A DNA stretch of 59,992 nucleotides, counting the filler. It is 9 parts of 9 records of this genome, joined end to end, with 100 filler letters (N's around TTAATTAATTAA, not from the genome) between each part and the next. Parts side by side here need not be neighbours in the genome. Positions count along the whole stretch, not along the records: positions 1 to 9,527 come from SRR31147125_82557; 8 more parts are not named here. The stretch is one strand, 5' to 3'. Shown piece by piece: positions 1 to 54,247 of the stretch; position 1 is the stretch's first letter, and each line of letters opens with the position of its first letter. The position numbers and the translations under genes are program-made. Under the pieces are notes generated by a model. The model saw only the letters and a program-made list of their open reading frames with translations, ran no database searches and had not been told where the DNA came from.

Positions 1-1
1 A

Positions 2-2410
2 ACCGTCTCGTTTCCATTGATAACTTAAAGTCCCTGTGTTATTGTCTTCAGTAACATTTGCAGATAATACTTCACCATATTTTAATGAACCTGTAATATT
101 TACATTGCCTGTTAGCGGACTTATCCATTTTGCATATAGCACAACATTTGTATCCGTTCCTATGGCTATATTTTCAATTTTATTCTGTTGTGCATCGTAC
201 CATCCTTTAAAAATATGGTCGTCTTTAGTTGCTTCGAAGAAACTTGTTACACCATCATTGTGTATGAAGTAAGTAGGATTATCGGTTGAGTTTTCTCCTC
301 CGTCTAATTCATAAGTAATTGTGCCGAACTCCTTAGGTATATTATAAGATCGGTCAGTTGTTCTGGAAATTATTTCGCCACAATTATAAGAATCGCCAGT
401 GTTACTTATCCAGCCAAGTGAGCTGAGTTCAGGATGAGTAGGGAAGACAATGTCACCATTTTCAGTAGTAGCATAATAGAAACAACGTCGACCTAAACTC
501 AATAAACTATTAGGTAAAGTAATTGATTTAAATTTACAATATGAAAATGCATAATCTTCCATGTGTATAATGCCTTCCAGAATAGAATCAATATCGACAT
601 CAACCTGTATTTTACCAAACGACACAAGCGTGTCTCTACACTCTTCTCCATTGGCATTGCGGGCATAAAAAACACCGTTAAAGCTTTTATTATTTAGTGT
701 GTCTATTTGGTTTCTTGTAAAAGCAGCACAACCTATATAGATAAGGTTATCTTCAGGTAAGCTCATCTTTTCAATATCATTCCGGTAAAAAGCGAAATCA
801 CCTATTTTACGAATTGATTCAGGGAAGTTTAGCGCAGTCAGCCTATTGTCATTGAATGCATGATGTCCTATTTCTTCAATAGATTCTGATAGTGTTAAGG
901 ATTTAATTTGGGAACCATAAAAACTGCGTTCTCCTATGCTTATTACATTATTTGGAATAATTAAAGTATCGATTGGGCAATTGTAAAATGCATACGAACC
1001 AATTTTCATCACTTGTTCGGGCATAAAATCCACCTTGGTGTCGTTACCACCATACGATAGTACTACAGTAGAATCAGTTGTGCCGTCTGTATTACGTTTA
1101 AATATTAAACCGTTACTGGTTTTTTCGTTAACTTCTTTAATTTTATTAATGTTAAATACTCCTTCTCCCAAAAATGTAACACTGGTCGGTATTGTTAAAG
1201 TATCTATTTCATTTTCACTGAAAGCATAAACATCTATATGCTCAAGGTTTTCGGGTAATTCCAGTTTCGATATTTTATTGTCATAAAATGCTCTTTCACC
1301 TATTTTTATTAGTGATGTAGGCAATTCAATTTCCTCTAAATTATTTTGATAAAATGTATAGTCGTTTATTGTAGTTATCCCCTCAGGTATTTTCACTGCT
1401 TCAAAATTATTATTTCGAAATGCAGAATTTCCAATGTAGGTAACACTTTCAGGTATTTCAACTGTTTTTAAATAGTTACTTGCGAAGGAATAAGATTTAA
1501 TCTCGGTTAAGGTGTTCGGAAACACGATGGTTCCAAGGCCTTTGCCATAAAAAGTATTAGACTCAACAATTTTCACCTCTACATCTTGTCCGTCTACATT
1601 AAAAGAGGAAGGAATAATAATGTCATCCTGCTCGTTGTTTGTGAAATTGGATATGGCTCCATTTGTTGCATCAAATTCAATATCGTTTAAGGTTAACACG
1701 TAGGGATTATACCATTTGGCAGTGTAAGAATCTAAGTAATTTGTTATTTCAGCTCCTCCTTCAAATTCATCTGTCCCGTAATTAGAAAACCATCTGTAGT
1801 CGATTAATCCAGGAGGATTAGGCAATGTTATAGATGGTAAATTGTCGTTGTAATAAAATGCAGCATAACCTATTTGTTCAACGCTTTGTGAAAGTGTAAC
1901 ACTGGTAAGCTTGTTGCTATAGAAAGCATAACTTCCAATTTCTTTTACTCCGTTTGGAATCTCAAGCGTAGTTAAAAGGTTGAATCTGAAAGTTCTGAAT
2001 TCAATAATAGGAAGATTCTCTGAAATGGTCAAATTGGTTAATTTATTGTTGTAGAATGCTTCTTGCCCCAATTTAACCACAGAATTTGGGATTACTAAAG
2101 ACGATATCAGATTGTTCTTAAATGCTCCGTTCAAAATGGTGTCAACTGAATTGGGAATAACAACAGCAGTTAAGTTTTTATCCGCGAATGCATTTTCACC
2201 AATTTGTTTTACATCATAGGTGATACCCCCTATAGTAATTGAGGAGGGTATTATTATATCCTTCTCTGTACTATTATTATAGGCTGTAATTGTGTTTGTG
2301 GCGGTGTTAAAAGTAATATCGCCCGATTGAATAACATAAGCTGCCTTTGCACCGACTGTAGTGCCTAAAAGCAAGGTAAATAATACCAATAAATGTAAAG
2401 TTTTGTTCAT
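2..2410 (-). CDS. BspA/TpLRR-type leucine-rich repeat surface protein with InlB B-repeat and Ig-like domain (3' partial, runs off window)
   Basis: Not in the ORF track because no stop lies inside the window. Manual translation from ATG 2410 gives signal peptide MNKTLHLLVLFTLLLGTTVGAKA, many IPNSVxxIGxxAF repeats, TITYELDGGENSTDNP...FKGWY...VVLYAKW (InlB B-repeat-like) and LTGNVNITGSLKYGEVLSA...YQWKRDG. The frame matches at several spot-checked positions. Confidence 0.9.
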   Translation of the reverse strand, partial: MNKTLHLLVLFTLLLGTTVGAKAAYVIQSGDITFNTATNTITAYNNSTEKDIIIPSSITIGGITYDVKQIGENAFADKNLTAVVIPNSVDTILNGAFKNNLISSLVIPNSVVKLGQEAFYNNKLTNLTISENLPIIEFRTFRFNLLTTLEIPNGVKEIGSYAFYSNKLTSVTLSQSVEQIGYAAFYYNDNLPSITLPNPPGLIDYRWFSNYGTDEFEGGAEITNYLDSYTAKWYNPYVLTLNDIEFDATNGAISNFTNNEQDDIIIPSSFNVDGQDVEVKIVESNTFYGKGLGTIVFPNTLTEIKSYSFASNYLKTVEIPESVTYIGNSAFRNNNFEAVKIPEGITTINDYTFYQNNLEEIELPTSLIKIGERAFYDNKISKLELPENLEHIDVYAFSENEIDTLTIPTSVTFLGEGVFNINKIKEVNEKTSNGLIFKRNTDGTTDSTVVLSYGGNDTKVDFMPEQVMKIGSYAFYNCPIDTLIIPNNVISIGERSFYGSQIKSLTLSESIEEIGHHAFNDNRLTALNFPESIRKIGDFAFYRNDIEKMSLPEDNLIYIGCAAFTRNQIDTLNNKSFNGVFYARNANGEECRDTLVSFGKIQVDVDIDSILEGIIHMEDYAFSYCKFKSITLPNSLLSLGRRCFYYATTENGDIVFPTHPELSSLGWISNTGDSYNCGEIISRTTDRSYNIPKEFGTITYELDGGENSTDNPTYFIHNDGVTSFFEATKDDHIFKGWYDAQQNKIENIAIGTDTNVVLYAKWISPLTGNVNITGSLKYGEVLSANVTEDNNTGTLSYQWKRDG

Positions 2411-2564
2411 CTTTTAATTGTTTAAATTTATTAATTTGACATGGCTATCGCTTATAGAGCAAGAAAAGCCATATTAAAAAGCATGTTTGAATATTTATTA
2501 TGTATTGATATTTAATAAGGTAGGGCTAAGACCCCCGTTTTATAAAAATTAGGAGTCACAAGGA

Positions 2565-2921
2565 TTAACCATCCCAGATATAATGATGCGGCACAGGCTG
2601 TGAAAAATGTTTTCTAACAGGAAAAATCTTTTCTAGTCTAACGCGATCGTGATCGAGGATATAGTGGATGGTGCCAATGCGATCTATAGTTTCTGAAAGC
2701 ACATTGAAACCTGATATTAACATAAGCACTAGCGTAGTTCCGCTTATTATATGAGTGTTTTGAGCAAAGGTTCCTTTAAACTTCTCAGTTTCTTTTAAGA
2801 AAAATGGTGTGTCAAAATCTTCATTTATAAAGTACTTGTAAATCTCACAGACTTTGTTATAAAGTAGCAACTTATTAAAGGTATTTGCTGTAGTTATTGA
2901 AATCCTTATTTTATTACTCAT
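2565..2921 (-). CDS. hypothetical protein (uncertain)
   Basis: 118-aa ORF co-oriented with its neighbours; no recognisable motif. Confidence 0.35.
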   Translation of the reverse strand: MSNKIRISITTANTFNKLLLYNKVCEIYKYFINEDFDTPFFLKETEKFKGTFAQNTHIISGTTLVLMLISGFNVLSETIDRIGTIHYILDHDRVRLEKIFPVRKHFSQPVPHHYIWDG

Positions 2922-3035
2922 TTCAGATTTATCTTATCTCATTAACTATGGTTGTTCATATAAAAAATCACTTTGCAAAAATGTCTATGTAATTATTATT
3001 ACACAATTGACATTTAAAACAATCTTTAGCACAAA

Positions 3036-3953
3036 TCAAACATTTGGTTTTCTGTATTCAACAGGTGTACAGCCAACCACGGATTTAAACTTTCGACTAA
3101 AGTAGTTCGAGTCGCTAAAACCAAGTTCGAAAGCAATTTGTTTTATGGATATTTTTGTGTTGACTAACAGGTATTTAGATTCGTAATAAATACGATTCTG
3201 CAAATATGCTTTCGCGGATAGCTCTGTATGTTGTTTAACAATTCTGTTTAAATGATTGGGGTGGATGGTCAACAGGTCGGCATAATTCTGAATTTCTTTC
3301 TCTGTTCTAAAATTAGCCTCAACCATAGCAGAAAAGCGATCAAAAAGTTCATCTTGCTCGTCTTGATTGTTGATTGAGGTAATATAAAGCCTTGACGTTT
3401 GCATTACTAACTCGGCTATTTTTAAGATAAATAGCTTCTTGTCCATATTTTCTTTACAATCTTTTAGTGAAAAAATATCGATAAAAAGATTCACGAAAGT
3501 TTTAAGTGAGGTCTTTCCTATACTTCGGTATGGTTTCATTGAAAGTTTAAACAACTGATTAAGTTGAAGAAAAGAATAAGGGAATCGCATCTCTTCAAAT
3601 AAATCTTCAGAAAATGAAATCATATATCCATCGCAATCTTTCGAAAAAGTGTTTGTATGAATTACGTTTTTGGGGATAATAATAATAGTCATTGGCTTTA
3701 GATTGAAAGAAAAGTTCCCAATGGTAATATGTCCTGTCCCTTTTGTAATTAGACAAATAACAAAGTGAGCCAATCTGCTGGGAGGCATTATCCCTTTAAA
3801 TTCTATAACAAAATCACGGACATGTAAAAATTGAAAGTTAAAGTCTACTTTTGCTTTTTCAGTAAAATCAACAATTTTTTCATTGCCATCTTCAGATAAT
3901 GCCTTGCTGTATTTTTTCACTATCCCGTTTTGAGCTACTTTTATTTTTTTCAT
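3036..3953 (-). CDS. AraC-family transcriptional regulator (cupin N-terminus)
   Basis: C-terminal SIKQIAFELGFSDSNYFSRKFK...TPVEYR HTH; N-terminal cupin-like ITKGTGHITI. Confidence 0.92.
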   Translation of the reverse strand: MKKIKVAQNGIVKKYSKALSEDGNEKIVDFTEKAKVDFNFQFLHVRDFVIEFKGIMPPSRLAHFVICLITKGTGHITIGNFSFNLKPMTIIIIPKNVIHTNTFSKDCDGYMISFSEDLFEEMRFPYSFLQLNQLFKLSMKPYRSIGKTSLKTFVNLFIDIFSLKDCKENMDKKLFILKIAELVMQTSRLYITSINNQDEQDELFDRFSAMVEANFRTEKEIQNYADLLTIHPNHLNRIVKQHTELSAKAYLQNRIYYESKYLLVNTKISIKQIAFELGFSDSNYFSRKFKSVVGCTPVEYRKPNV

Positions 3954-4555
3954 TATAAAGAATTCTTATGCTTAGGAATGAATCTATTTGTCCGCTTCAT
4001 ATAATCTAAGTATGATTGTCCGTACCTGATCTTTAGATCTTTTTCTTCCACAAAAACAATGGCGTAATTTATTGGAATCCAGAGAAGGGCAATTATTAAA
4101 AGAAATGTTGAATTGAACAGGAAGGCAAATGCAAACCAGTAGCTCACATCTGCAATGGCTTGTGGATGACGGATGCGATCGTAAATCCCACCAAACATTT
4201 CGTTTTTCTTTTTTGGGGCAAAACTGTCCGGAGCGACCTTCGAAACTCTTTTGATAATGATGGTAGCAAATACAGTACAAAACACGCCAATGGCAATGCT
4301 GATAATCCAACCCGGAATTCCTGGTAATAATCTTGTGGGGAATTTTGCTTCGAGTGGAAAGAAAAAGTATAACACTTCGAGAAGCATAGCAGCGCCCATT
4401 CCTATAAATGAAATTCTGCGTAACATGGCACATTTTTTATAGGCTTTTTCACCTATTTTAATTTCAAGTTGAGCCGGGCGTACACTTAACATGTAAAATA
4501 CGGTGTACCATAGCATACTTGCAAAAATTCCGTAAACAATACTTTTTTCAATCAT
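3953..4555 (-). CDS. Isoprenylcysteine carboxyl methyltransferase / PEMT-family membrane protein
   Basis: Hydrophobic helices plus GIYDRIRHPQ and EEKDLKIRYGQSYLDYMKRTNRFIP motifs. Confidence 0.85.
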   Translation of the reverse strand: MIEKSIVYGIFASMLWYTVFYMLSVRPAQLEIKIGEKAYKKCAMLRRISFIGMGAAMLLEVLYFFFPLEAKFPTRLLPGIPGWIISIAIGVFCTVFATIIIKRVSKVAPDSFAPKKKNEMFGGIYDRIRHPQAIADVSYWFAFAFLFNSTFLLIIALLWIPINYAIVFVEEKDLKIRYGQSYLDYMKRTNRFIPKHKNSL

Positions 4556-4560
4556 GACTT

Positions 4561-4956
4561 TTAATTTTTAGTTGTTGTATAATTCCCTGTTAGTATTAAG
4601 ACTATTAGAATACTGCATATTAAAAAATCGAATACGCTAATGGGTAGCATAAATGGCATAAGGATAAATGTTACACCTATGCTACTTAACGCCATTGGGA
4701 TTTTCCATGATGTACCGGTTAGAAGTCCCACAGCGGAAAAAATCCTTAGTAAGGTTATGCCTGAAAACAAAGGAATAAGATAGCCCGGGTGGGATGCAAA
4801 CAGTAGGTTCATGGGGATATAATACATCTCGGGATATTGATTTTCACATCTCCCGAGTGTCATCAGAATTGCCGTTACGCAATCGACAATTTCAATTAAC
4901 GAATACAATACAAAAATGTATCCTGCAATTGTAAGTAATATGTTTTTCTGTGTCAT
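4561..4956 (-). CDS. hypothetical membrane protein (about 4 TM)
   Basis: 131-aa hydrophobic ORF ending 5 bp upstream of the next gene. Confidence 0.7.
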   Translation of the reverse strand: MTQKNILLTIAGYIFVLYSLIEIVDCVTAILMTLGRCENQYPEMYYIPMNLLFASHPGYLIPLFSGITLLRIFSAVGLLTGTSWKIPMALSSIGVTFILMPFMLPISVFDFLICSILIVLILTGNYTTTKN

Positions 4957-5010
4957 TTTCGATTTGAATTATTTTCGAAAGCAAAAATGAACAATAGGTC
5001 AATACTGATC

Positions 5011-5099
5011 GTCTCAATAAAATCAGGGGAGGAATATTCAGCGTCTCAAGAAACTATTAACACCTAACAATCTGTATTTTACACTCATTTTATTGAGAC
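5011..5099. promoter_or_regulatory. 13-bp perfect inverted repeat GTCTCAATAAAAT/ATTTTATTGAGAC plus an extra CGTCTCAA copy; candidate operator
   Basis: Arms at 5011-5023 and 5087-5099, third motif at 5042-5049; lies between a membrane-anchored AraC gene and the downstream operon. Confidence 0.5.
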
Positions 5100-5104
5100 A
5101 GTTG

Positions 5105-6211
5105 TTAGCCTGATATCCTTTTATGAAGCACATATTCCGTTGGGGTAAATTCTGTGATTTGTTTAAAAATGCGGTTAAAAGATGCTTTTGAATTAAACCC
5201 GCTATCGAGGGCAATGGCCAAAACTGTGAATTTATCGCTATCGGTTTCGAGACGCTTCTTAACTTCCCGTACACGATACCTGTTTACAAATTCATAAAAA
5301 TTCATGCTCATTTCGTGATTTAGCAGGTTGGATAGCTCTCGTGTTGGAATATTCACCGCTTTGGATAAATCATATAAGGTTAGTTCGGGGTTAAGAAAGG
5401 GTTTTTCGGTTTCCATATAACCCTGCAACAGATTTTGGGGTGTTGTTTGGGGCTTCTCTTTCGGTGTCTTTGGTTTATTTGAAAGGTTATAATTAGCTTC
5501 CAACTGGGGATGAAAAATACGACCTTGTTTGTAACCCCAATAACCAATGTAAAAAACTAATAGCACCAATACTGCATACATAATATAATCGGTGTTGGCC
5601 ACAGATAATTTTCCTGTAACCATAAAAACTACCGCCAGCAAATTGACTACAAACAATCCCACGAATCCCCATACAATGCGTTGCACCCAAACCAAATCGA
5701 TTTTTTCCTGGTAAGAAAATATATTTTTAATTTTTGCTTTATGGGTTTGGATTATCAGAAAGGTTTTAGACAGATAAAGTACTATTATAAATAAAACAAG
5801 TGTTGCTATAAATATTTTCAGCCACAGGAATCCTGACACTTCGTAAGAAAATTTGTAGAGCTGTTGCTTATGTATTTTAAAAAACAAGCCGGTTGCAAAA
5901 GCAATCATTACAATAAACACTACAAAAAACAAGTATTTTCTTTTGAAAGGTAATCTTGGTGTAGTTAATGCCTTTGCGTAAATAAACAGAATGGGGAAGT
6001 GGGTGATAAATGAAACGGATGCAATACCAAACCAGAAATATTCGCCCGGCACACATTTCCATGTCCCTAACAAGACAAACAAGAAATTTAGCCCAAATAT
6101 CAACATCCAACAAGATAAAATCTTATCCGGTAGTTGCTTCCCTTTCTTTGTAAACAAGATAAGGGCAAAAACAAAGGCGGTAAAACTACCTATTGATAAA
6201 ATGATTTCCAT
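5105..6211 (-). CDS. Membrane-anchored AraC-family regulator (multi-TM sensor plus HTH)
   Basis: About 7 TM segments, then KPFLNPELTL...NFYEFVNRYRV...IALDSGFNSKASFNRIFK. Confidence 0.92.
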   Translation of the reverse strand: MEIILSIGSFTAFVFALILFTKKGKQLPDKILSCWMLIFGLNFLFVLLGTWKCVPGEYFWFGIASVSFITHFPILFIYAKALTTPRLPFKRKYLFFVVFIVMIAFATGLFFKIHKQQLYKFSYEVSGFLWLKIFIATLVLFIIVLYLSKTFLIIQTHKAKIKNIFSYQEKIDLVWVQRIVWGFVGLFVVNLLAVVFMVTGKLSVANTDYIMYAVLVLLVFYIGYWGYKQGRIFHPQLEANYNLSNKPKTPKEKPQTTPQNLLQGYMETEKPFLNPELTLYDLSKAVNIPTRELSNLLNHEMSMNFYEFVNRYRVREVKKRLETDSDKFTVLAIALDSGFNSKASFNRIFKQITEFTPTEYVLHKRISG

Positions 6212-6591
6212 ATTCTTACTACAGTAACTTTATAAGACAAAAAAAGCACATAATTACCAAAACTACAAAAGCGTTAAAAAGTAAGATATTTTTTCTTTTG
6301 CTTTAAAAATATTCTTCAGCAACTGCAAACAAATTGCCAATCGTGCGATATCAGGAAAAACAACTCTTTTGCAAGTTTTGGTCGCGGGGTGGCGCGTGCG
6401 ATATGCAAATGTGCTGTTTTGTGCAGTGGGGATTCTGTGACTTTGTGTGGGAGGAGAAAAAACAATTTAAATTCTCATCTAATTGCACCACCCCATCAAC
6501 GGAGCACAGATCCAGTCAATCCTTTTATTGTAATTATTTCAATTTTCTTATATCGTATCAATGTGTCGAGTTGGTGGTTCTAAACACTTGC

Positions 6592-6716
6592 TTACAACGA
6601 ATGGGTATAAAATGCGTGCCGCTTTTACCACATCCGTTCCTTGCACCAAGCTATTAAATTTTCATGTATTTTACAAAAAGCTCTGGCGGCATGAAATTTA
6701 TACCGTGTTGGCGGTA
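6592..6716 (-). mobile_element. attC-like recombination hairpin (integron-cassette type)
   Basis: Minus strand reads TACCGCCAAC-AC-GGTATAAATTTCATGCCGC...GCGGCACGCATTTTATACC-CATTC-GTTGTAA; inner arms 6604-6622 and 6686-6704 pair at 16/19; lies just downstream of the AraC stop. Confidence 0.7.
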
Positions 6717-6781
6717 TGTGGCTTTCTGTTGTCCGCTATCCGCTGTGTTTGGTCGTGTGTCTGCTTGTGTGGTTGGCTTTG

Positions 6782-7693
6782 TCAGTTAAATGATTGTCTA
6801 TACTTCAAAGGCGACATTTCGGTTTTCTTTTTGAAAAGTCGGTTGAATGATTGCGGTTGCTCAAAACCTAATTGATAGGCAATTTCATTTACGGATAAAT
6901 TTGTCGTTAAAAGTTTTTCTTTTGCTTTTTCAATCAGTTTTTCGTGAATGTGTAGTTGGGTATTTTGTCCTGTTAGCGAACGCAACATGTCGCTTAGATA
7001 ATTTGCGGAATAATTGAGCTTACTGGCTACATATTCAACTGTTGGCAATCCGTTTTTAAGTGATTCTGCGCTATCAAAATAATCTTTTAGCAAGTACTCC
7101 ATCCTGGAAAGCAAATCATTGTTTACAGCTTTTCGGGTAATGAATTGGCGTTCGTAAAAACGATTGCAATAATTCAATAGTAAATCAATTTGCGACAGGA
7201 TAATGTCTTGTGTGTGCTTGTCTATATGCTGATATTCCTTTTCTATTTTTTGAAAAATCTCAACAACATTTTGCTCTTCCTGCTCAGAAAGGTGCAACGC
7301 TTCATTTAAGGAATATGAAAAGAAGCCGTAATCTTTGATTGTGCTCTGAAGTTGGTGTTTTTGAAGAAAATCAGAATGAAAAATCAATACATACCCTGTC
7401 CCAATCGTTTCGTTAAAAACATTGGTTTCGGCTACTTCAACAGATTGAATTTGTTTGGGTGCAATAAACGTCATTGTCCCTTTGTCAAAATCATAATACT
7501 GTTGCCCGTATTTTACTTTGGATTGAATGTTGTTTTTTAACGATATGGTATAAAAATCGGTAGAAAAGCGTTGCCACAAGTCAGAATTTACAGCATGTAT
7601 TTCAGAAACCATCACCACACCTACCAACGGATGTAAGGGCGGTGAAATGGATAATAAGCGATGAAATTCGGATAAAGACTTAATTGTTCGCAT
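6782..7693 (-). CDS. AraC-family transcriptional regulator (Bacteroidota type)
   Basis: KYGQQYYDFDKG, YSLNEALHLS and SVNEIAYQLGFEQPQSFNRLFK motifs; likely start MRTIKS at 7693. Confidence 0.93.
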   Translation of the reverse strand: MRTIKSLSEFHRLLSISPPLHPLVGVVMVSEIHAVNSDLWQRFSTDFYTISLKNNIQSKVKYGQQYYDFDKGTMTFIAPKQIQSVEVAETNVFNETIGTGYVLIFHSDFLQKHQLQSTIKDYGFFSYSLNEALHLSEQEEQNVVEIFQKIEKEYQHIDKHTQDIILSQIDLLLNYCNRFYERQFITRKAVNNDLLSRMEYLLKDYFDSAESLKNGLPTVEYVASKLNYSANYLSDMLRSLTGQNTQLHIHEKLIEKAKEKLLTTNLSVNEIAYQLGFEQPQSFNRLFKKKTEMSPLKYRQSFN

Positions 7694-8039
7694 ATCTATA
7701 TAAAAATCCAAAGAAGATTAAAGCAACAATTTCTATAGTTAACCAAAGTAATTGTTTTGGAAAATAACCGTCTAAAACAAACCCGAATAAACGGGCTATA
7801 ACAATCCCCAAAGTTAGAAAAAACAATACAGCACACACCAATAGTTTCAAATTGTCCCATTGATTGTAAAAAGTGAGCAAAATGCCCAACCCAATTAAAA
7901 AACCCCATATGACCCGCATTTCAATCCTCTGATATGGATCTTCGGGCATAGGGATTTTGCTAACCAGGTTTGGTTTGTATGTGAGAATACATCCTACCGC
8001 AAGCAATACTGCTCCTATTATTTTCAATACCAAATTCAT
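7680..8039 (-). CDS. small membrane protein (DUF4345-like)
   Basis: 4 hydrophobic segments with ARLFGFVLDG; overlaps both neighbours. Confidence 0.65.
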   Translation of the reverse strand: MNLVLKIIGAVLLAVGCILTYKPNLVSKIPMPEDPYQRIEMRVIWGFLIGLGILLTFYNQWDNLKLLVCAVLFFLTLGIVIARLFGFVLDGYFPKQLLWLTIEIVALIFFGFLYRYANN

Positions 8040-8953
8040 TAACTCAGAGAAAGATTTTCCTGAAAGAATGGCACCAAATTATGCAACGCTTCTGCTGTTG
8101 CTTCGGGTTTGTCGTATAAATCATAATGTCCTGCGCCATTTACAATATGGATTTTCTTGTTTTTGGAAACGGCTTTTTTGTGCAAATCGAAACCATCTCT
8201 GTATGAACCAAAAGAACCAACTTTGTCCCCTACAATAATTAATAAAGGTTGTGCAAGCAAAACTTCGGCAAGATGAAAAGCATCAAACACTATTAAGTTT
8301 GCCATACTTGACAAAAGCAATTTATTGTTTGAAGTAGGATATTCGCCTCTTGGCGTTCTGTAATAATCGATAGCCTCCAACATATCCATGTCGCTTAATC
8401 CAGCTTGTTTTGCTTCTTCGGCTGACTTTGGTGTCCAATTGGTAATAATCTGTTCTGCTCCGTTGGCTTCTGCGGTTCGTTGAGAAGAAACAGCTTCTAA
8501 TGTTTCTAAAAAATTAGATTCTCTAAATGCTCTTCCTATGTTTACTCCCGAAACTGTAGCCACTGCTTTTATGCGTCTTTCTTTCAAAGCTGCATTTACA
8601 GCATAGCCACCACCTGCACAAATGCCTAATAAACCAATGCAGTTTTTATCTACAAAATTTAATGTACTAAGATAATCTACAGCATAGCGAATGTCTTCTA
8701 CTCGATGGGCAGGATCTTCCCAATATCTTGGTTCACCACCGCTTTCGCCTTGAAAAGAAGTGTCATAGGCCAAAGCAATGAGCCCTTTTTTAGCGAGGTT
8801 TTCTGCATATAAACCGGCAGTTTGTTCTTTTACGCTTCCTCCTGGGTGAACACAGACAATTGCCTGGTATTTTTTTGTTTCATCAAAATTATCGGGCAAA
8901 TGAAGATGGGCTGCTGTGTCCCAATTTCTGTTTTTGAATTTTACTTTTTGCAT
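8039..8953 (-). CDS. alpha/beta hydrolase (YcjY/dienelactone hydrolase-like)
   Basis: HPGGSVKEQTAGLYA, GICAGGGY nucleophile elbow (Cys), GAGHYDLYD. Confidence 0.9.
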   Translation of the reverse strand: MQKVKFKNRNWDTAAHLHLPDNFDETKKYQAIVCVHPGGSVKEQTAGLYAENLAKKGLIALAYDTSFQGESGGEPRYWEDPAHRVEDIRYAVDYLSTLNFVDKNCIGLLGICAGGGYAVNAALKERRIKAVATVSGVNIGRAFRESNFLETLEAVSSQRTAEANGAEQIITNWTPKSAEEAKQAGLSDMDMLEAIDYYRTPRGEYPTSNNKLLLSSMANLIVFDAFHLAEVLLAQPLLIIVGDKVGSFGSYRDGFDLHKKAVSKNKKIHIVNGAGHYDLYDKPEATAEALHNLVPFFQENLSLS

Positions 8954-9013
8954 TGTTTTATTCTTTTAAGTTTTACAATGCAAAATTCGTCTTCCTTTAA
9001 AAAGTAAATGTTT

Positions 9014-9041
9014 CCAAATCAAGGTTGTTTGTAACCAAATC
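9014..9041. promoter_or_regulatory. CCAAATC direct repeat, 21-bp period; candidate AraC binding site
   Basis: Copies at 9014-9020 and 9035-9041, upstream of the hydrolase-AraC operon. Confidence 0.45.
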
Positions 9042-9095
9042 GGGGTTGAAATGTCGGGTTATGTATCTCGTGTCGTTTGGTTGGGTATCCGCCAT

Positions 9096-9105
9096 TACCG
9101 CCAAC
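9096..9105 (-). mobile_element. Cassette 5' core site GTTGGCGGTA
   Basis: Forms an exact 10-bp inverted repeat with 6707-6716, the inverse core of the attC-like site. Confidence 0.65.
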
Positions 9106-9527
9106 TTCTAATACAGCGCTCCCAAACCCTCCAAAAGTTCGCGTTATTATTCCAAATTAAGAGCAATAGCAGTAACATTCAGTTACCACAACACATTTTT
9201 ATATCTCATCTTACTCCCCATTATCCTTCCTGGTTCTCCTGGCAGCTACCTGTGCCATAACCATGTCGGTTTTTTCAGGGTGTCAATCCAGTTAAAATCG
9301 GTCATATCTGCTGTGGTGAGGGCAACCATTGCTATATATAAATGTGTTCTCAGGAAAATTTGTTTCCAGTGTGGTTGAATAAAATTCTGTTGCTTCTACT
9401 AATTCCGAATGTGTGGCTTGTGATACACTTAAACCTCTTAAATTGTTCATAAACTAATGAGTTTTGGTTTAACAATGAAATAAATTTAGGAAAAAAATAT
9501 TTAATACCAACGGGTATCATTTAGCAT

Positions 9528-9627
9528 NNNNNNNNNNNNNNNNNNNNNNNNNNNNNNNNNNNNNNNNNNNNTTAATTAATTAANNNNNNNNNNNNNNNNN
9601 NNNNNNNNNNNNNNNNNNNNNNNNNNN
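9528..9627. other. artificial contig spacer
   Basis: N44-TTAATTAATTAA-N44 (stop codons in all six frames). Confidence 0.99.
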
Positions 9628-16642: not shown

Positions 16643-16742
16643 NNNNNNNNNNNNNNNNNNNNNNNNNNNNNNNNNNNNNNNNNNNNTTAATTAATTAANN
16701 NNNNNNNNNNNNNNNNNNNNNNNNNNNNNNNNNNNNNNNNNN
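16643..16742. other. artificial contig spacer
   Basis: N44-TTAATTAATTAA-N44. Confidence 0.99.
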
Positions 16743-23171: not shown

Positions 23172-23271
23172 NNNNNNNNNNNNNNNNNNNNNNNNNNNNN
23201 NNNNNNNNNNNNNNNTTAATTAATTAANNNNNNNNNNNNNNNNNNNNNNNNNNNNNNNNNNNNNNNNNNNN
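23172..23271. other. artificial contig spacer
   Basis: N44-TTAATTAATTAA-N44. Confidence 0.99.
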
Positions 23272-29291: not shown

Positions 29292-29391
29292 NNNNNNNNN
29301 NNNNNNNNNNNNNNNNNNNNNNNNNNNNNNNNNNNTTAATTAATTAANNNNNNNNNNNNNNNNNNNNNNNNNNNNNNNNNNNNNNNNNNNN
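29292..29391. other. artificial contig spacer
   Basis: N44-TTAATTAATTAA-N44. Confidence 0.99.
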
Positions 29392-34478: not shown

Positions 34479-34578
34479 NNNNNNNNNNNNNNNNNNNNNN
34501 NNNNNNNNNNNNNNNNNNNNNNTTAATTAATTAANNNNNNNNNNNNNNNNNNNNNNNNNNNNNNNNNNNNNNNNNNNN
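34479..34578. other. artificial contig spacer
   Basis: N44-TTAATTAATTAA-N44. Confidence 0.99.
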
Positions 34579-40153: not shown

Positions 40154-40253
40154 NNNNNNNNNNNNNNNNNNNNNNNNNNNNNNNNNNNNNNNNNNNNTTA
40201 ATTAATTAANNNNNNNNNNNNNNNNNNNNNNNNNNNNNNNNNNNNNNNNNNNN
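40154..40253. other. artificial contig spacer
   Basis: N44-TTAATTAATTAA-N44. Confidence 0.99.
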
Positions 40254-46943: not shown

Positions 46944-47043
46944 NNNNNNNNNNNNNNNNNNNNNNNNNNNNNNNNNNNNNNNNNNNNTTAATTAATTAAN
47001 NNNNNNNNNNNNNNNNNNNNNNNNNNNNNNNNNNNNNNNNNNN
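46944..47043. other. artificial contig spacer
   Basis: N44-TTAATTAATTAA-N44. Confidence 0.99.
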
Positions 47044-54147: not shown

Positions 54148-54247
54148 NNNNNNNNNNNNNNNNNNNNNNNNNNNNNNNNNNNNNNNNNNNNTTAATTAAT
54201 TAANNNNNNNNNNNNNNNNNNNNNNNNNNNNNNNNNNNNNNNNNNNN
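54148..54247. other. artificial contig spacer
   Basis: N44-TTAATTAATTAA-N44. Confidence 0.99.

What the first reader, a model, noticed from the sequence alone, without database searches (positions are those of the whole stretch)
6592..9105. Integron-like gene cassette in a Bacteroidota-like contig, with no integrase in view
Seen: on the minus strand the unit starts at G|TTGGCGGTA (9105-9096) and carries hydrolase, membrane protein and AraC genes. It ends in TACCGCCAAC (6716-6707), the exact 10-bp complement of the start, followed by an imperfect hairpin of about 120 bp closing at G|TTGTAAGC (6598). Established: in integrated integron cassettes the inverse core matches the core at the cassette's own 5' end rather than the core closing the attC, which is the pattern here. 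Unusual: the core is not canonical GTTRRRY, the spacers are asymmetric (2 nt and 5 nt), and the 2.5-kb three-gene cassette seems to carry its own regulator and operator. Inference: a cassette of a poorly described Bacteroidota integron-like system mobilised in trans.
Basis: partly seen in the sequence, partly recalled or inferred. Interest (0 to 1): 0.75.

Follow-up and report, generated by a model that had tools for sequence, protein, structure and literature searches.

The report
Integron-like gene cassette, Bacteroidota rAID type
A three-gene, self-regulated operon in a marine Bacteroidota contig is a mobile gene cassette of an integron-like gene-capture system that uses folding DNA hairpins and probably a Xer-like recombinase rather than a true integron integrase.

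Summary
The hydrolase-DUF4345-AraC unit recurs at 76-91% protein identity in 8 metagenome loci. None of them shares a flanking gene with the window. In 4 of those loci and in contigs of 4 of 4 sequencing runs, similarity to the window stops exactly at the GTT at 9105.

The hairpin at 6588-6718 is the window's only match to a covariance model of a ~139-nt element family. That family occurs in 100 of 151 sampled genomes of the order and shows strong compensatory base-pair changes. One complete genome carries 35 co-oriented copies in 140 kb. There, the bases after each GTT are the reverse complement of the next element's inverse core in 17 of 34 neighbour pairs, against 0 of 35 within-element pairs. 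The window cassette follows the same rule.

Related arrays start with a co-oriented Xer-like recombinase that lacks the integron-specific insertion. True IntI was found in only 5 of 301 genomes. The closest published system is rAID-1 of Bacteroidales (Ross et al. 2019), described as "reminiscent of integrons". No recombinase, circular form or empty site was seen for this cassette. Three different hairpins follow the same cassette body, which is not integron-like. This scan has noted the same system before on other DNA.

The parts
9096..9105 (-). 5' core box of the cassette (G|TTGGCGGTA). Similarity to other contexts starts here.
9042..9095 (-). T-poor (C/A-rich) leader behind the core box, variable in length between copies
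9009..9041 (-). Two direct repeats (GATTTGG-type, starts 21 bp apart) upstream of the hydrolase gene, conserved in the related loci. Inferred to be the AraC operator and promoter region.
   Evidence: function inferred
8039..8953 (-). Alpha/beta hydrolase gene (Hydrolase_4 / DLH / Abhydrolase_6)
7680..8039 (-). DUF4345 small membrane protein gene
6782..7711 (-). AraC-family regulator gene (HTH_18). The likely ATG is at 7693.
6717..6781 (-). T-poor 3' tract between the AraC stop codon and the inverse core
6707..6716 (-). Inverse core (R''-like box, TACCGCCAAC), the exact complement of the 5' core box. Contigs from two runs stop matching at 6706/6708.
6588..6718 (-). attC-like hairpin element: AAC, 2-nt spacer, arm 6704-6686, loop, arm 6622-6604, 5-nt spacer, GTT at 6598-6596. 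It is the only covariance-model match in the window.

Best explanation
Window 6596-9105 (minus strand) is a mobile gene cassette of the integron-like gene-capture system of Bacteroidota. That system has been published, for gut Bacteroidales, as recombinase-associated arrays (rAID-1). The cassette body carries a hydrolase, a DUF4345 membrane protein and an AraC regulator with its own operator. It is bounded by a cassette-specific 10-bp inverted pair (GTT-N7 ... N7'-AAC) and followed by a conserved-architecture imperfect hairpin that ends in GTT.

Inferred mechanism: in single-stranded DNA the hairpin folds, on family average better on the non-coding strand, and the two end boxes pair. A Xer/XerA-like tyrosine recombinase encoded elsewhere then cuts at the GTT, and possibly at the AAC, excises the unit and re-inserts it at another such site or at a secondary GTT site. 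Here the cassette sits alone rather than in an array, and is expressed from its own regulated promoter.

Shown: the family, its base pairing, the junctions, the end-box rule, and the physical linkage of related arrays to the recombinase. Inferred: folding in vivo, which recombinase acts, the cleavage points, and present-day mobility.
For: 1. The unit recurs in unrelated contexts. 8 of 9 metagenome loci carry the hydrolase at 76-91% identity. 6 of those 8 carry the whole trio, and 0 of 8 carry any of the window's flank genes.
2. The 5' junction is exact. blastn alignments to L003 and L005 start at 9105. In alignment A1 the window, L003, L004, L005 and L006 become alike at GTT-RGCGGTAATGG and are unrelated upstream. 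In 4 of 4 runs laid, from 3 studies, contigs match up to 9105 and then continue with unlike sequence.
3. The hairpin belongs to a family. A pattern search in 5 IntI-bearing genomes found 6 clearly related elements of about 139 nt. Model R1 then matched 100 of 151 sampled genomes of the order.
4. The pairing is real. On 52 members, 92.6% of cells pair, against 26-36% when the partner columns are slid. 15 of 17 stem pairs show compensatory changes. There are 205 double-change cells against 54 +/- 6 in shuffles (this alignment was fitted to the model). An unfitted MAFFT alignment of 9 members gave compensatory changes at 10 of 17 pairs.
5. There is a strand bias. The bottom strand is more stable in 40 of 52 members, mean -17.2 against -15.1 kcal/mol. 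Two conserved positions are G-T on the bottom strand and A-C on the top.
6. Arrays exist. The complete genome G117 has 35 matches in 140 kb, all on one strand.
7. The cassette rule holds. In 17 of 34 consecutive element pairs, at least 6 of the 7 variable bases after one element's GTT are complementary to the next element's inverse core. The figures are 0 of 35 for boxes of the same element and 17 of 1156 for all other pairs. The window (10 of 10 bases), L042 and L010 follow the rule.
8. A recombinase is linked. A 381-aa Xer/IntI-like gene lies upstream of, and co-oriented with, elements in G117 and G002. Comparing the coordinates shows the same arrangement in 7 further genomes. Homologs occur in 28 of 151 genomes, and 25 of those 28 carry the element, against 75 of the other 123 (lists compared by eye; Fisher p 0.004).
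Against: No recombinase of this kind lies in any piece of the window or in loci L003-L011. No whole genome is held for the window.

The contigs laid showed no empty site, circle junction or joint skipping 6598-9105. Contigs cannot show rare forms.

The window holds only one element, so this is not an array. Upstream of 9105 there is no recognisable element.

The window's own hairpin is a weak member. About 22 loop positions are missing, several pairs are non-standard, it shows no strand bias (-19.8 top, -19.0 bottom), and its minimum-energy fold ignores the family stem.

The 3' boundary is not uniform. L004, L009 and L010 lose similarity at the AraC stop codon, and L003 at 6736. X8 and X6 lose it at 6706/6708.

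The window, L005 and X8 each carry a different hairpin behind the same body. A classical attC travels with its cassette.

75 element-bearing genomes had no close homolog of the 381-aa recombinase at E <= 1e-70.

Identity with published rAID-1 was not tested directly, because the B. fragilis reference could not be fetched.
Confidence: 0.75

Rival explanations
1. The mobile unit is only 6707-9105, bounded by terminal inverted repeats. It is a non-autonomous transposon-like module moved by a transposase or by double-strand Xer-type recombination. The hairpin is a target or scaffold, not part of the unit.
For: A 2,964-nt contig from run X8 matches the window at 98.9% over exactly 6706-9105, then continues into a different hairpin variant. 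A contig from X6 stops matching at 6708. The window, L005 and X8 carry three different hairpins behind the same body.
Against: The end boxes differ between cassettes while staying complementary within each cassette. That fits base pairing, not recognition of a fixed terminal repeat by a protein. No target-site duplication flanks the unit. The arrays are linked to a tyrosine recombinase. The IS91 and IS110 transposases found in the G117 array belong to separate insertion sequences that target the sites.
Confidence: 0.13
2. It is a classical integron cassette with a divergent attC, moved by a true integron integrase (IntI) present elsewhere in the genome.
For: True IntI (TIGR02249 above its cut-off) occurs in 5 of 301 sampled genomes of the order. 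4 of those 5 also hold the element. The site architecture and the cassette rule are those of an integron.
Against: The element occurs in 100 of 151 genomes, far more often than IntI. In G117 no ORF reaches the IntI cut-off, yet the genome has a 35-element array. The arrays seen with an adjacent recombinase start with the Xer-like type. The intI contigs end, or run into an insertion sequence, right beside intI, so no IntI-linked array of these elements was seen.
Confidence: 0.06
3. It is an ordinary chromosomal operon. The 10-bp inverted match is chance, and the hairpin is a terminator-like or REP-like intergenic repeat with no role in mobility.
For: The 10-bp match alone is at chance level. 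The fold z-scores are about -1.8. There is no Rfam match. Only one element lies in the window.
Against: The junction at 9105 is exact in 4 other loci and in 4 of 4 runs. The loci share no synteny with the window. The cassette rule holds in 17 of 34 against 0 of 35. Related genomes carry co-oriented arrays that start with a recombinase.
Confidence: 0.04

Closest known systems
rAID-1 (recombinase-associated acquired interbacterial defence) clusters of Bacteroidales. Ross et al. 2019, preprint 10.1101/471110 (passages read); 2025 preprint PMC12247911 (passages read).
   Same: [quoted passage not shown] The window cassette's G+C is 37.3%.
   Different: The papers describe short immunity genes. In the passages I read they do not mention folding of the repeats, complementary end boxes, or circular or excised forms ('excision' and 'circular' occur 0 times). 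Here the cargo is a regulated three-gene hydrolase operon, the host is a marine organism, and the cassette is solitary. In G117 the cargo is anti-phage defence systems and restriction-modification systems in an array of about 130 kb. Direct identity with the B. fragilis system was not tested. The paper's figure S4 motifs and supplementary tables were not visible to me.
Integrons (IntI, attI, attC cassette arrays; sedentary chromosomal integrons and CALINs)
   Same: The site is an imperfect palindrome with outer AAC/GTT boxes, unpaired spacers and an inner stem. The junction lies at G|TT. The inverse core is complementary to the cassette's own 5' end. Arrays are co-oriented. The non-coding strand folds better. 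Insertion sequences parasitise the sites, IS110 family here, as IS1111-attC elements do in integrons (recalled).
   Different: The linked recombinase lacks the IntI-specific insertion and scores below the IntI cut-off, 207.5 against 265 bits. It is co-oriented with the array. The outer boxes pair over about 10 nt rather than 7. Two conserved mismatch positions take the place of bulged extrahelical bases. The spacers are asymmetric, 3 and 6 nt. The hairpin is not cassette-specific. This cassette has its own regulator. IntegronFinder 2.0 reported only In0 and one complete integron (Salinibacter ruber) in Bacteroidetes (PMC9024848, passage read).
pdif / Xer-dependent modules of Acinetobacter plasmids (recalled; not tested here)
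   Same: Gene modules that move between contexts, bounded by inversely oriented sites and dependent on Xer-type recombinases supplied in trans.
   Different: pdif sites are fixed 28-bp double-stranded XerC/XerD binding sites. Here the end boxes vary between cassettes and a long hairpin accompanies them.

Membership tests
Classical integron | Integron integrase: a tyrosine recombinase with the IntI-specific additional domain | tested here: not met
   There is none in the window. The recombinase that starts related arrays scores 207.5 bits on TIGR02249 against a cut-off of 265, in two stretches. It lacks about 44 residues where a true IntI of the same order carries the insertion. G117 has no ORF over the cut-off.
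Classical integron | attC-type site: imperfect palindrome with R''-L''...L'-R' boxes, AAC...GTT conserved, structure conserved more than sequence | tested here: met
   AAC and GTT are in register in 35 of 35 G117 elements. 15 of 17 stem pairs show compensatory changes and 92.6% of cells pair. The window element matches the model.
Classical integron | Inverse core complementary to the core at the cassette's own 5' end | tested here: met
   The window matches at 10 of 10 bases. In G117 the rule holds in 17 of 34 neighbour pairs, 0 of 35 same-element pairs and 17 of 1156 other pairs. L042 matches at 10 of 12.
Classical integron | Extrahelical bases that set strand choice; the bottom strand is the recombinogenic one | tested here: inconclusive
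   The consensus shows no single-base bulges. Two conserved 1x1 positions are A-C on the top strand and G-T on the bottom. The bottom strand is more stable in 40 of 52 members, but not in the window's own copy.
Classical integron | Recognition by the IntegronFinder attC covariance model | not testable with these tools
   That model is not held here. Rfam has no match.
Classical integron | attC travels with its cassette | tested here: not met
   The same trio body is followed by three different hairpin variants in the window, L005 and run X8. X8 is 98.9% identical over 6706-9105.
rAID-1 cluster | 5' XerD-like tyrosine recombinase at least 44% identical to BF9343_RS08045 | not testable with these tools
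   The reference protein could not be fetched. Related arrays do have a co-oriented 5' Xer/XerA-like recombinase. The window has none.
rAID-1 cluster | Two or more co-oriented downstream genes with G+C of 41% or lower | tested here: met
   The three genes are co-oriented and the cassette's G+C is 37.3%. However, no recombinase lies upstream on this contig piece.
rAID-1 cluster | Repetitive intergenic sequences between the genes | tested here: inconclusive
   The window has one element. Related genomes have dense arrays. Whether the published MEME motifs are this element could not be checked, because figures are not held.
rAID-1 cluster | Cargo of orphan immunity genes | tested here: not met
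   The cargo is an alpha/beta hydrolase, a DUF4345 protein and an AraC regulator.
TIR transposon / MITE | Conserved terminal inverted repeats and a target-site duplication | tested here: not met
   The end boxes differ between cassettes. No duplication flanks the unit.

The most novel reading that the evidence does not exclude
Bacteroidota have their own integron analogue, run by Xer-like recombinases, in which both strands of the hairpin site can be recombined. Cassette bodies (GTT-N7...N7'-AAC) and hairpins would then be exchanged independently, by crossover at the GTT or at the AAC. The system would move whole regulated operons and multi-gene defence systems, not only small immunity genes, and can drop single cassettes at secondary GTT sites outside arrays, as in this window.
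Probability: 0.3. Interest if true: 0.8.

Novelty: new variant of a known kind. Interest (0 to 1): 0.62.

Why it matters
Integrons are the textbook gene-capture platform, and IntegronFinder surveys find them nearly absent from Bacteroidota. If these Xer-linked hairpin cassettes work as inferred, one of the most abundant phyla of gut and sea has a parallel cassette system. It is present in about two thirds of the sampled genomes of this order. It builds arrays of more than 100 kb of defence genes, and it also moves ordinary regulated metabolic operons like this one.

The cassette-specific complementary end boxes give a simple computable rule for delimiting such cassettes in metagenomes. The case also makes a concrete question testable: does a Xer-type recombinase without the IntI insertion recombine folded single-stranded sites?

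Tried and rejected
- Synteny through a flanking gene. The PMT_2 gene used for the single genome-contig scan turned out to lie on a different contig of the chained window, so L001 and L002 say nothing about the finding's synteny.
- Rfam. No family matched the window, the region, or canonical copies of the element.
- Promoter and terminator scan. The counts equalled those of shuffled sequence.
- Pattern GTTRGCGGTAAT in 301 genomes. The hits were mostly chance matches inside genes. The 2-mismatch hits are also at chance level.
- Arrays next to true intI. The contigs end, or carry an insertion sequence, beside intI.
- Hydrolase homologs at E <= 1e-90 in 301 genomes of the order. None were found, so no array context for this particular cassette was obtained.
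- A matching inverse core for the sequence after 6598. None was found on the contig.
- Laying of run contigs. No joint skips the cassette and no circle junction appears. The parts of 4500-6500 left uncovered prove nothing.
- The idea that the multi-copy 300-aa recombinase of G117 is the array's integrase. Rejected: it belongs to a 2,392-nt IS91-family element.
- The L003-type 87-nt repeat, which also precedes the cassette in X8 and L042. It folds no better than shuffled sequence and was not recognised by R2. Its role remains unexplained.
Full report
**Observation.** On the minus strand GTTGGCGGTA lies at 9105-9096 and its exact complement at 6716-6707. An imperfect inverted repeat follows, with 19-nt arms at 6604-6622 and 6686-6704 that are 84% complementary. 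It closes 5 nt before GTT at 6598-6596. Between the two boxes lie an alpha/beta hydrolase, a DUF4345 protein and an AraC regulator.

Taken alone these features are weak. Three other exact 10-nt inverted pairs occur in the same 3.1 kb. The hairpin's DNA fold z-scores are only -1.76 and -1.80, and its minimum-energy fold ignores the long stem. The window is also a chain of short contigs joined by N linkers. The finding lies on piece 1-9527, and no whole genome is held.

**The unit moves.** One metagenome scan with the hydrolase returned 9 loci, 8 of them at 76-91% identity.
- 6 of the 8 hold the whole trio. L007 lacks DUF4345, and the L006 contig ends inside the hydrolase gene.
- None of the 8 holds any of the six other genes of the window's contig.
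- blastn similarity to L003 and L005 begins exactly at 9105.
- In alignment A1 the window, L003, L004, L005 and L006 become alike at GTT-RGCGGTAATGG and are unrelated upstream. L010 has a variant box, and L008 and L009 do not share the boundary.

Public runs gave independent support. Contigs of 4 of 4 runs, from 3 studies, match up to 9105 and then run on with unlike sequence. The window's left flank is hardly covered in those runs, but uncovered parts prove nothing.

**The hairpin is a member of a family.** A loose pattern taken from the window and L005 was searched in five IntI-bearing genomes. It hit six obviously related elements of about 139 nt. Their architecture is: a variable box ending in AAC, a 3-nt spacer, an 18-nt arm, a loop, the matching arm, a 5-6-nt spacer, then GTT. 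A nine-sequence MAFFT alignment gave a consensus stem with compensatory changes at 10 of 17 pairs. The bottom strand was more stable (-16.6 against -13.1 kcal/mol), because two conserved positions are G-T there and A-C on the top strand.

Covariance model R1 found the window element at 6588-6718 as the window's only match. Model R2, built from 52 matches, confirmed this with filters off (46.2 bits, E 1.7e-8). On those 52:
- 92.6% of cells pair, against 26-36% with slid partners.
- 15 of 17 stem pairs show double changes (this alignment was fitted to the model).
- The bottom strand is more stable in 40 of 52.

The window's own copy is a poor member. It lacks about 22 loop positions, has several non-standard pairs, and shows no strand bias.

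**Distribution and arrays.** R1 matched 100 of 151 sampled genomes of the order at E <= 1e-5. True IntI (TIGR02249 above its cut-off) was found in 5 of 301. In the complete genome G117, 35 matches lie in 140 kb, all on one strand. They sit among co-oriented genes that are largely defence systems: restriction-modification, Abi, a Wadjet-like operon and others.

**The cassette rule.** I ordered the 35 G117 elements and compared the seven variable bases after each GTT with the inverse core of the next element downstream. These are the two ends of the same cassette. At least 6 of 7 are complementary in 17 of 34 pairs. The figure is 0 of 35 for the two boxes of one element, and 17 of 1156 for all other pairs. 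The boxes differ from cassette to cassette. The window cassette obeys it (10 of 10 bases), as do cassettes in L042 and L010. Pairs that fail the rule probably include missed elements and insertion-sequence insertions.

**The recombinase.** No tyrosine recombinase of this type lies in the window or in L003-L011. In G117 a 381-aa gene lies directly upstream of, and co-oriented with, four elements. The Prolixibacteraceae genome G002 shows the same arrangement.
- Its best NCBIfam match is the XerA-type 'tyrosine recombinase/integron integrase' model (230.9 bits).
- It scores 207.5 bits on the IntI model, below the 265 cut-off.
- Aligned with a true IntI of the same order, it lacks about 44 residues where the IntI insertion lies.
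- Homologs (38-56% identity) occur in 28 of 151 genomes.
- By my comparison of the lists, 25 of these 28 carry the element, against 75 of the other 123 (p 0.004).
- In seven of them the gene lies 1-8 kb upstream of an element on the same strand.

**Comparison with the literature.** Ross et al. 2019 (preprint 10.1101/471110, passages read) defined rAID-1 clusters of Bacteroidales. [quoted passage not shown] They report these clusters in 226 of 423 genomes. A 2025 preprint (PMC12247911, passages read) still describes only those features.

In the passages I read I found no mention of folding, end-box complementarity or excised forms. Figure S4 and the supplements were not visible to me. IntegronFinder 2.0 (PMC9024848, passage read) reports only In0 and one complete integron in Bacteroidetes. 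Searches found no other description.

The finding therefore belongs to a published but mechanistically undescribed kind. Earlier notes of this scan reached the same assignment on other DNA. I treat those as leads, not as support.

**What does not fit an integron.**
- The linked recombinase lacks the IntI domain and is co-oriented with the array.
- The spacers are asymmetric (3 and 6 nt in the family, 2 and 5 nt here).
- There are no bulged bases.
- This cassette has three genes with its own regulator and a pair of direct repeats 21 bp apart in front of the first gene.
- The hairpin is not cassette-specific. A 2,964-nt contig of run X8 is 98.9% identical to the window over exactly 6706-9105, then continues into another hairpin variant. 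X6 stops matching at 6708, and L005 carries a third variant.
- L004, L009 and L010 lose similarity at the AraC stop codon, and L003 at 6736.

A crossover at the AAC as well as at the GTT (top-strand recombination), or gene conversion between hairpins, would explain the hairpin swapping. Neither was tested.

**Verdict.** Present mobility, the acting enzyme and the cleavage points remain inferred.

Noticed in passing
window 9528-9623, 16643-16740, 23172-23270, 29292-29388, 34479-34575, 40154-40250, 46944-47040, 54148-54244: The window is a chain of nine short contigs joined by N...TTAATTAATTAA...N linkers. The pieces have G+C from 0.35 to 0.59, so they may not all come from one organism.
   Followed up: partly
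window 9190-9527: The contig end upstream of the cassette is multi-copy in marine metagenomes (summed contig depth up to 188). It holds a 15-nt inverted repeat (9190-9204 / 9334-9348) that ends in GTT on the minus strand, with AAC...GTT framing like the element family. Model R2 does not recognise it.
   Followed up: partly
G117:C1:1865001-2005000 (loci L094-L100) and 2037000-2043600 (L101): A complete genome of the order carries an array of about 130 kb with at least 35 co-oriented elements. Its cassettes are largely defence systems. A second short array lies behind a 381-aa Xer-like recombinase.
   Followed up: partly
G117, e.g. L094 11642-14033; at least 8 full copies: A 2,392-nt IS91-family element (Y2 transposase plus a 300-aa tyrosine recombinase) sits between the inverse core plus spacer and the hairpin arm of host sites, flanked by AACAAT on both sides. 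In the one copy whose start I read (L102), the recombinase frame is out of register with its ATG across a run of eight A. All copies show the same 300-aa open frame, and I did not read their starts. The cause could be a frameshift, slippage or a sequencing error.
   Followed up: partly
G117 near 1954430 and 1958074 (L098): IS110-family copies follow directly after the box behind the GTT of two elements. This recalls the attC-targeting IS1111 group of integrons (the comparison is recalled).
   Followed up: no
L003 1301-1387, 3748-3834, about 6950-7013; L042 about 700-770; run X8 upstream of 9105: A different 87-nt repeat ending in ...ACTGCC-GTT precedes cassettes, including this trio in L003 and X8. 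It folds no better than shuffled sequence and is not matched by R2. Its role is unexplained.
   Followed up: partly
L010 2272-5740: Tandem paralogous units: an AraC-like gene, then the trio, then a second hydrolase start. A 750-nt stretch is duplicated at 77% identity, and the GTT box lies only about 40 nt after each AraC stop codon.
   Followed up: no
L020, L029 (G129:C40, G249:C50): In two genomes of the order, true integron integrase genes are followed within about 0.5-1 kb by a shared insertion-sequence-like stretch, and the contigs end there.
   Followed up: no
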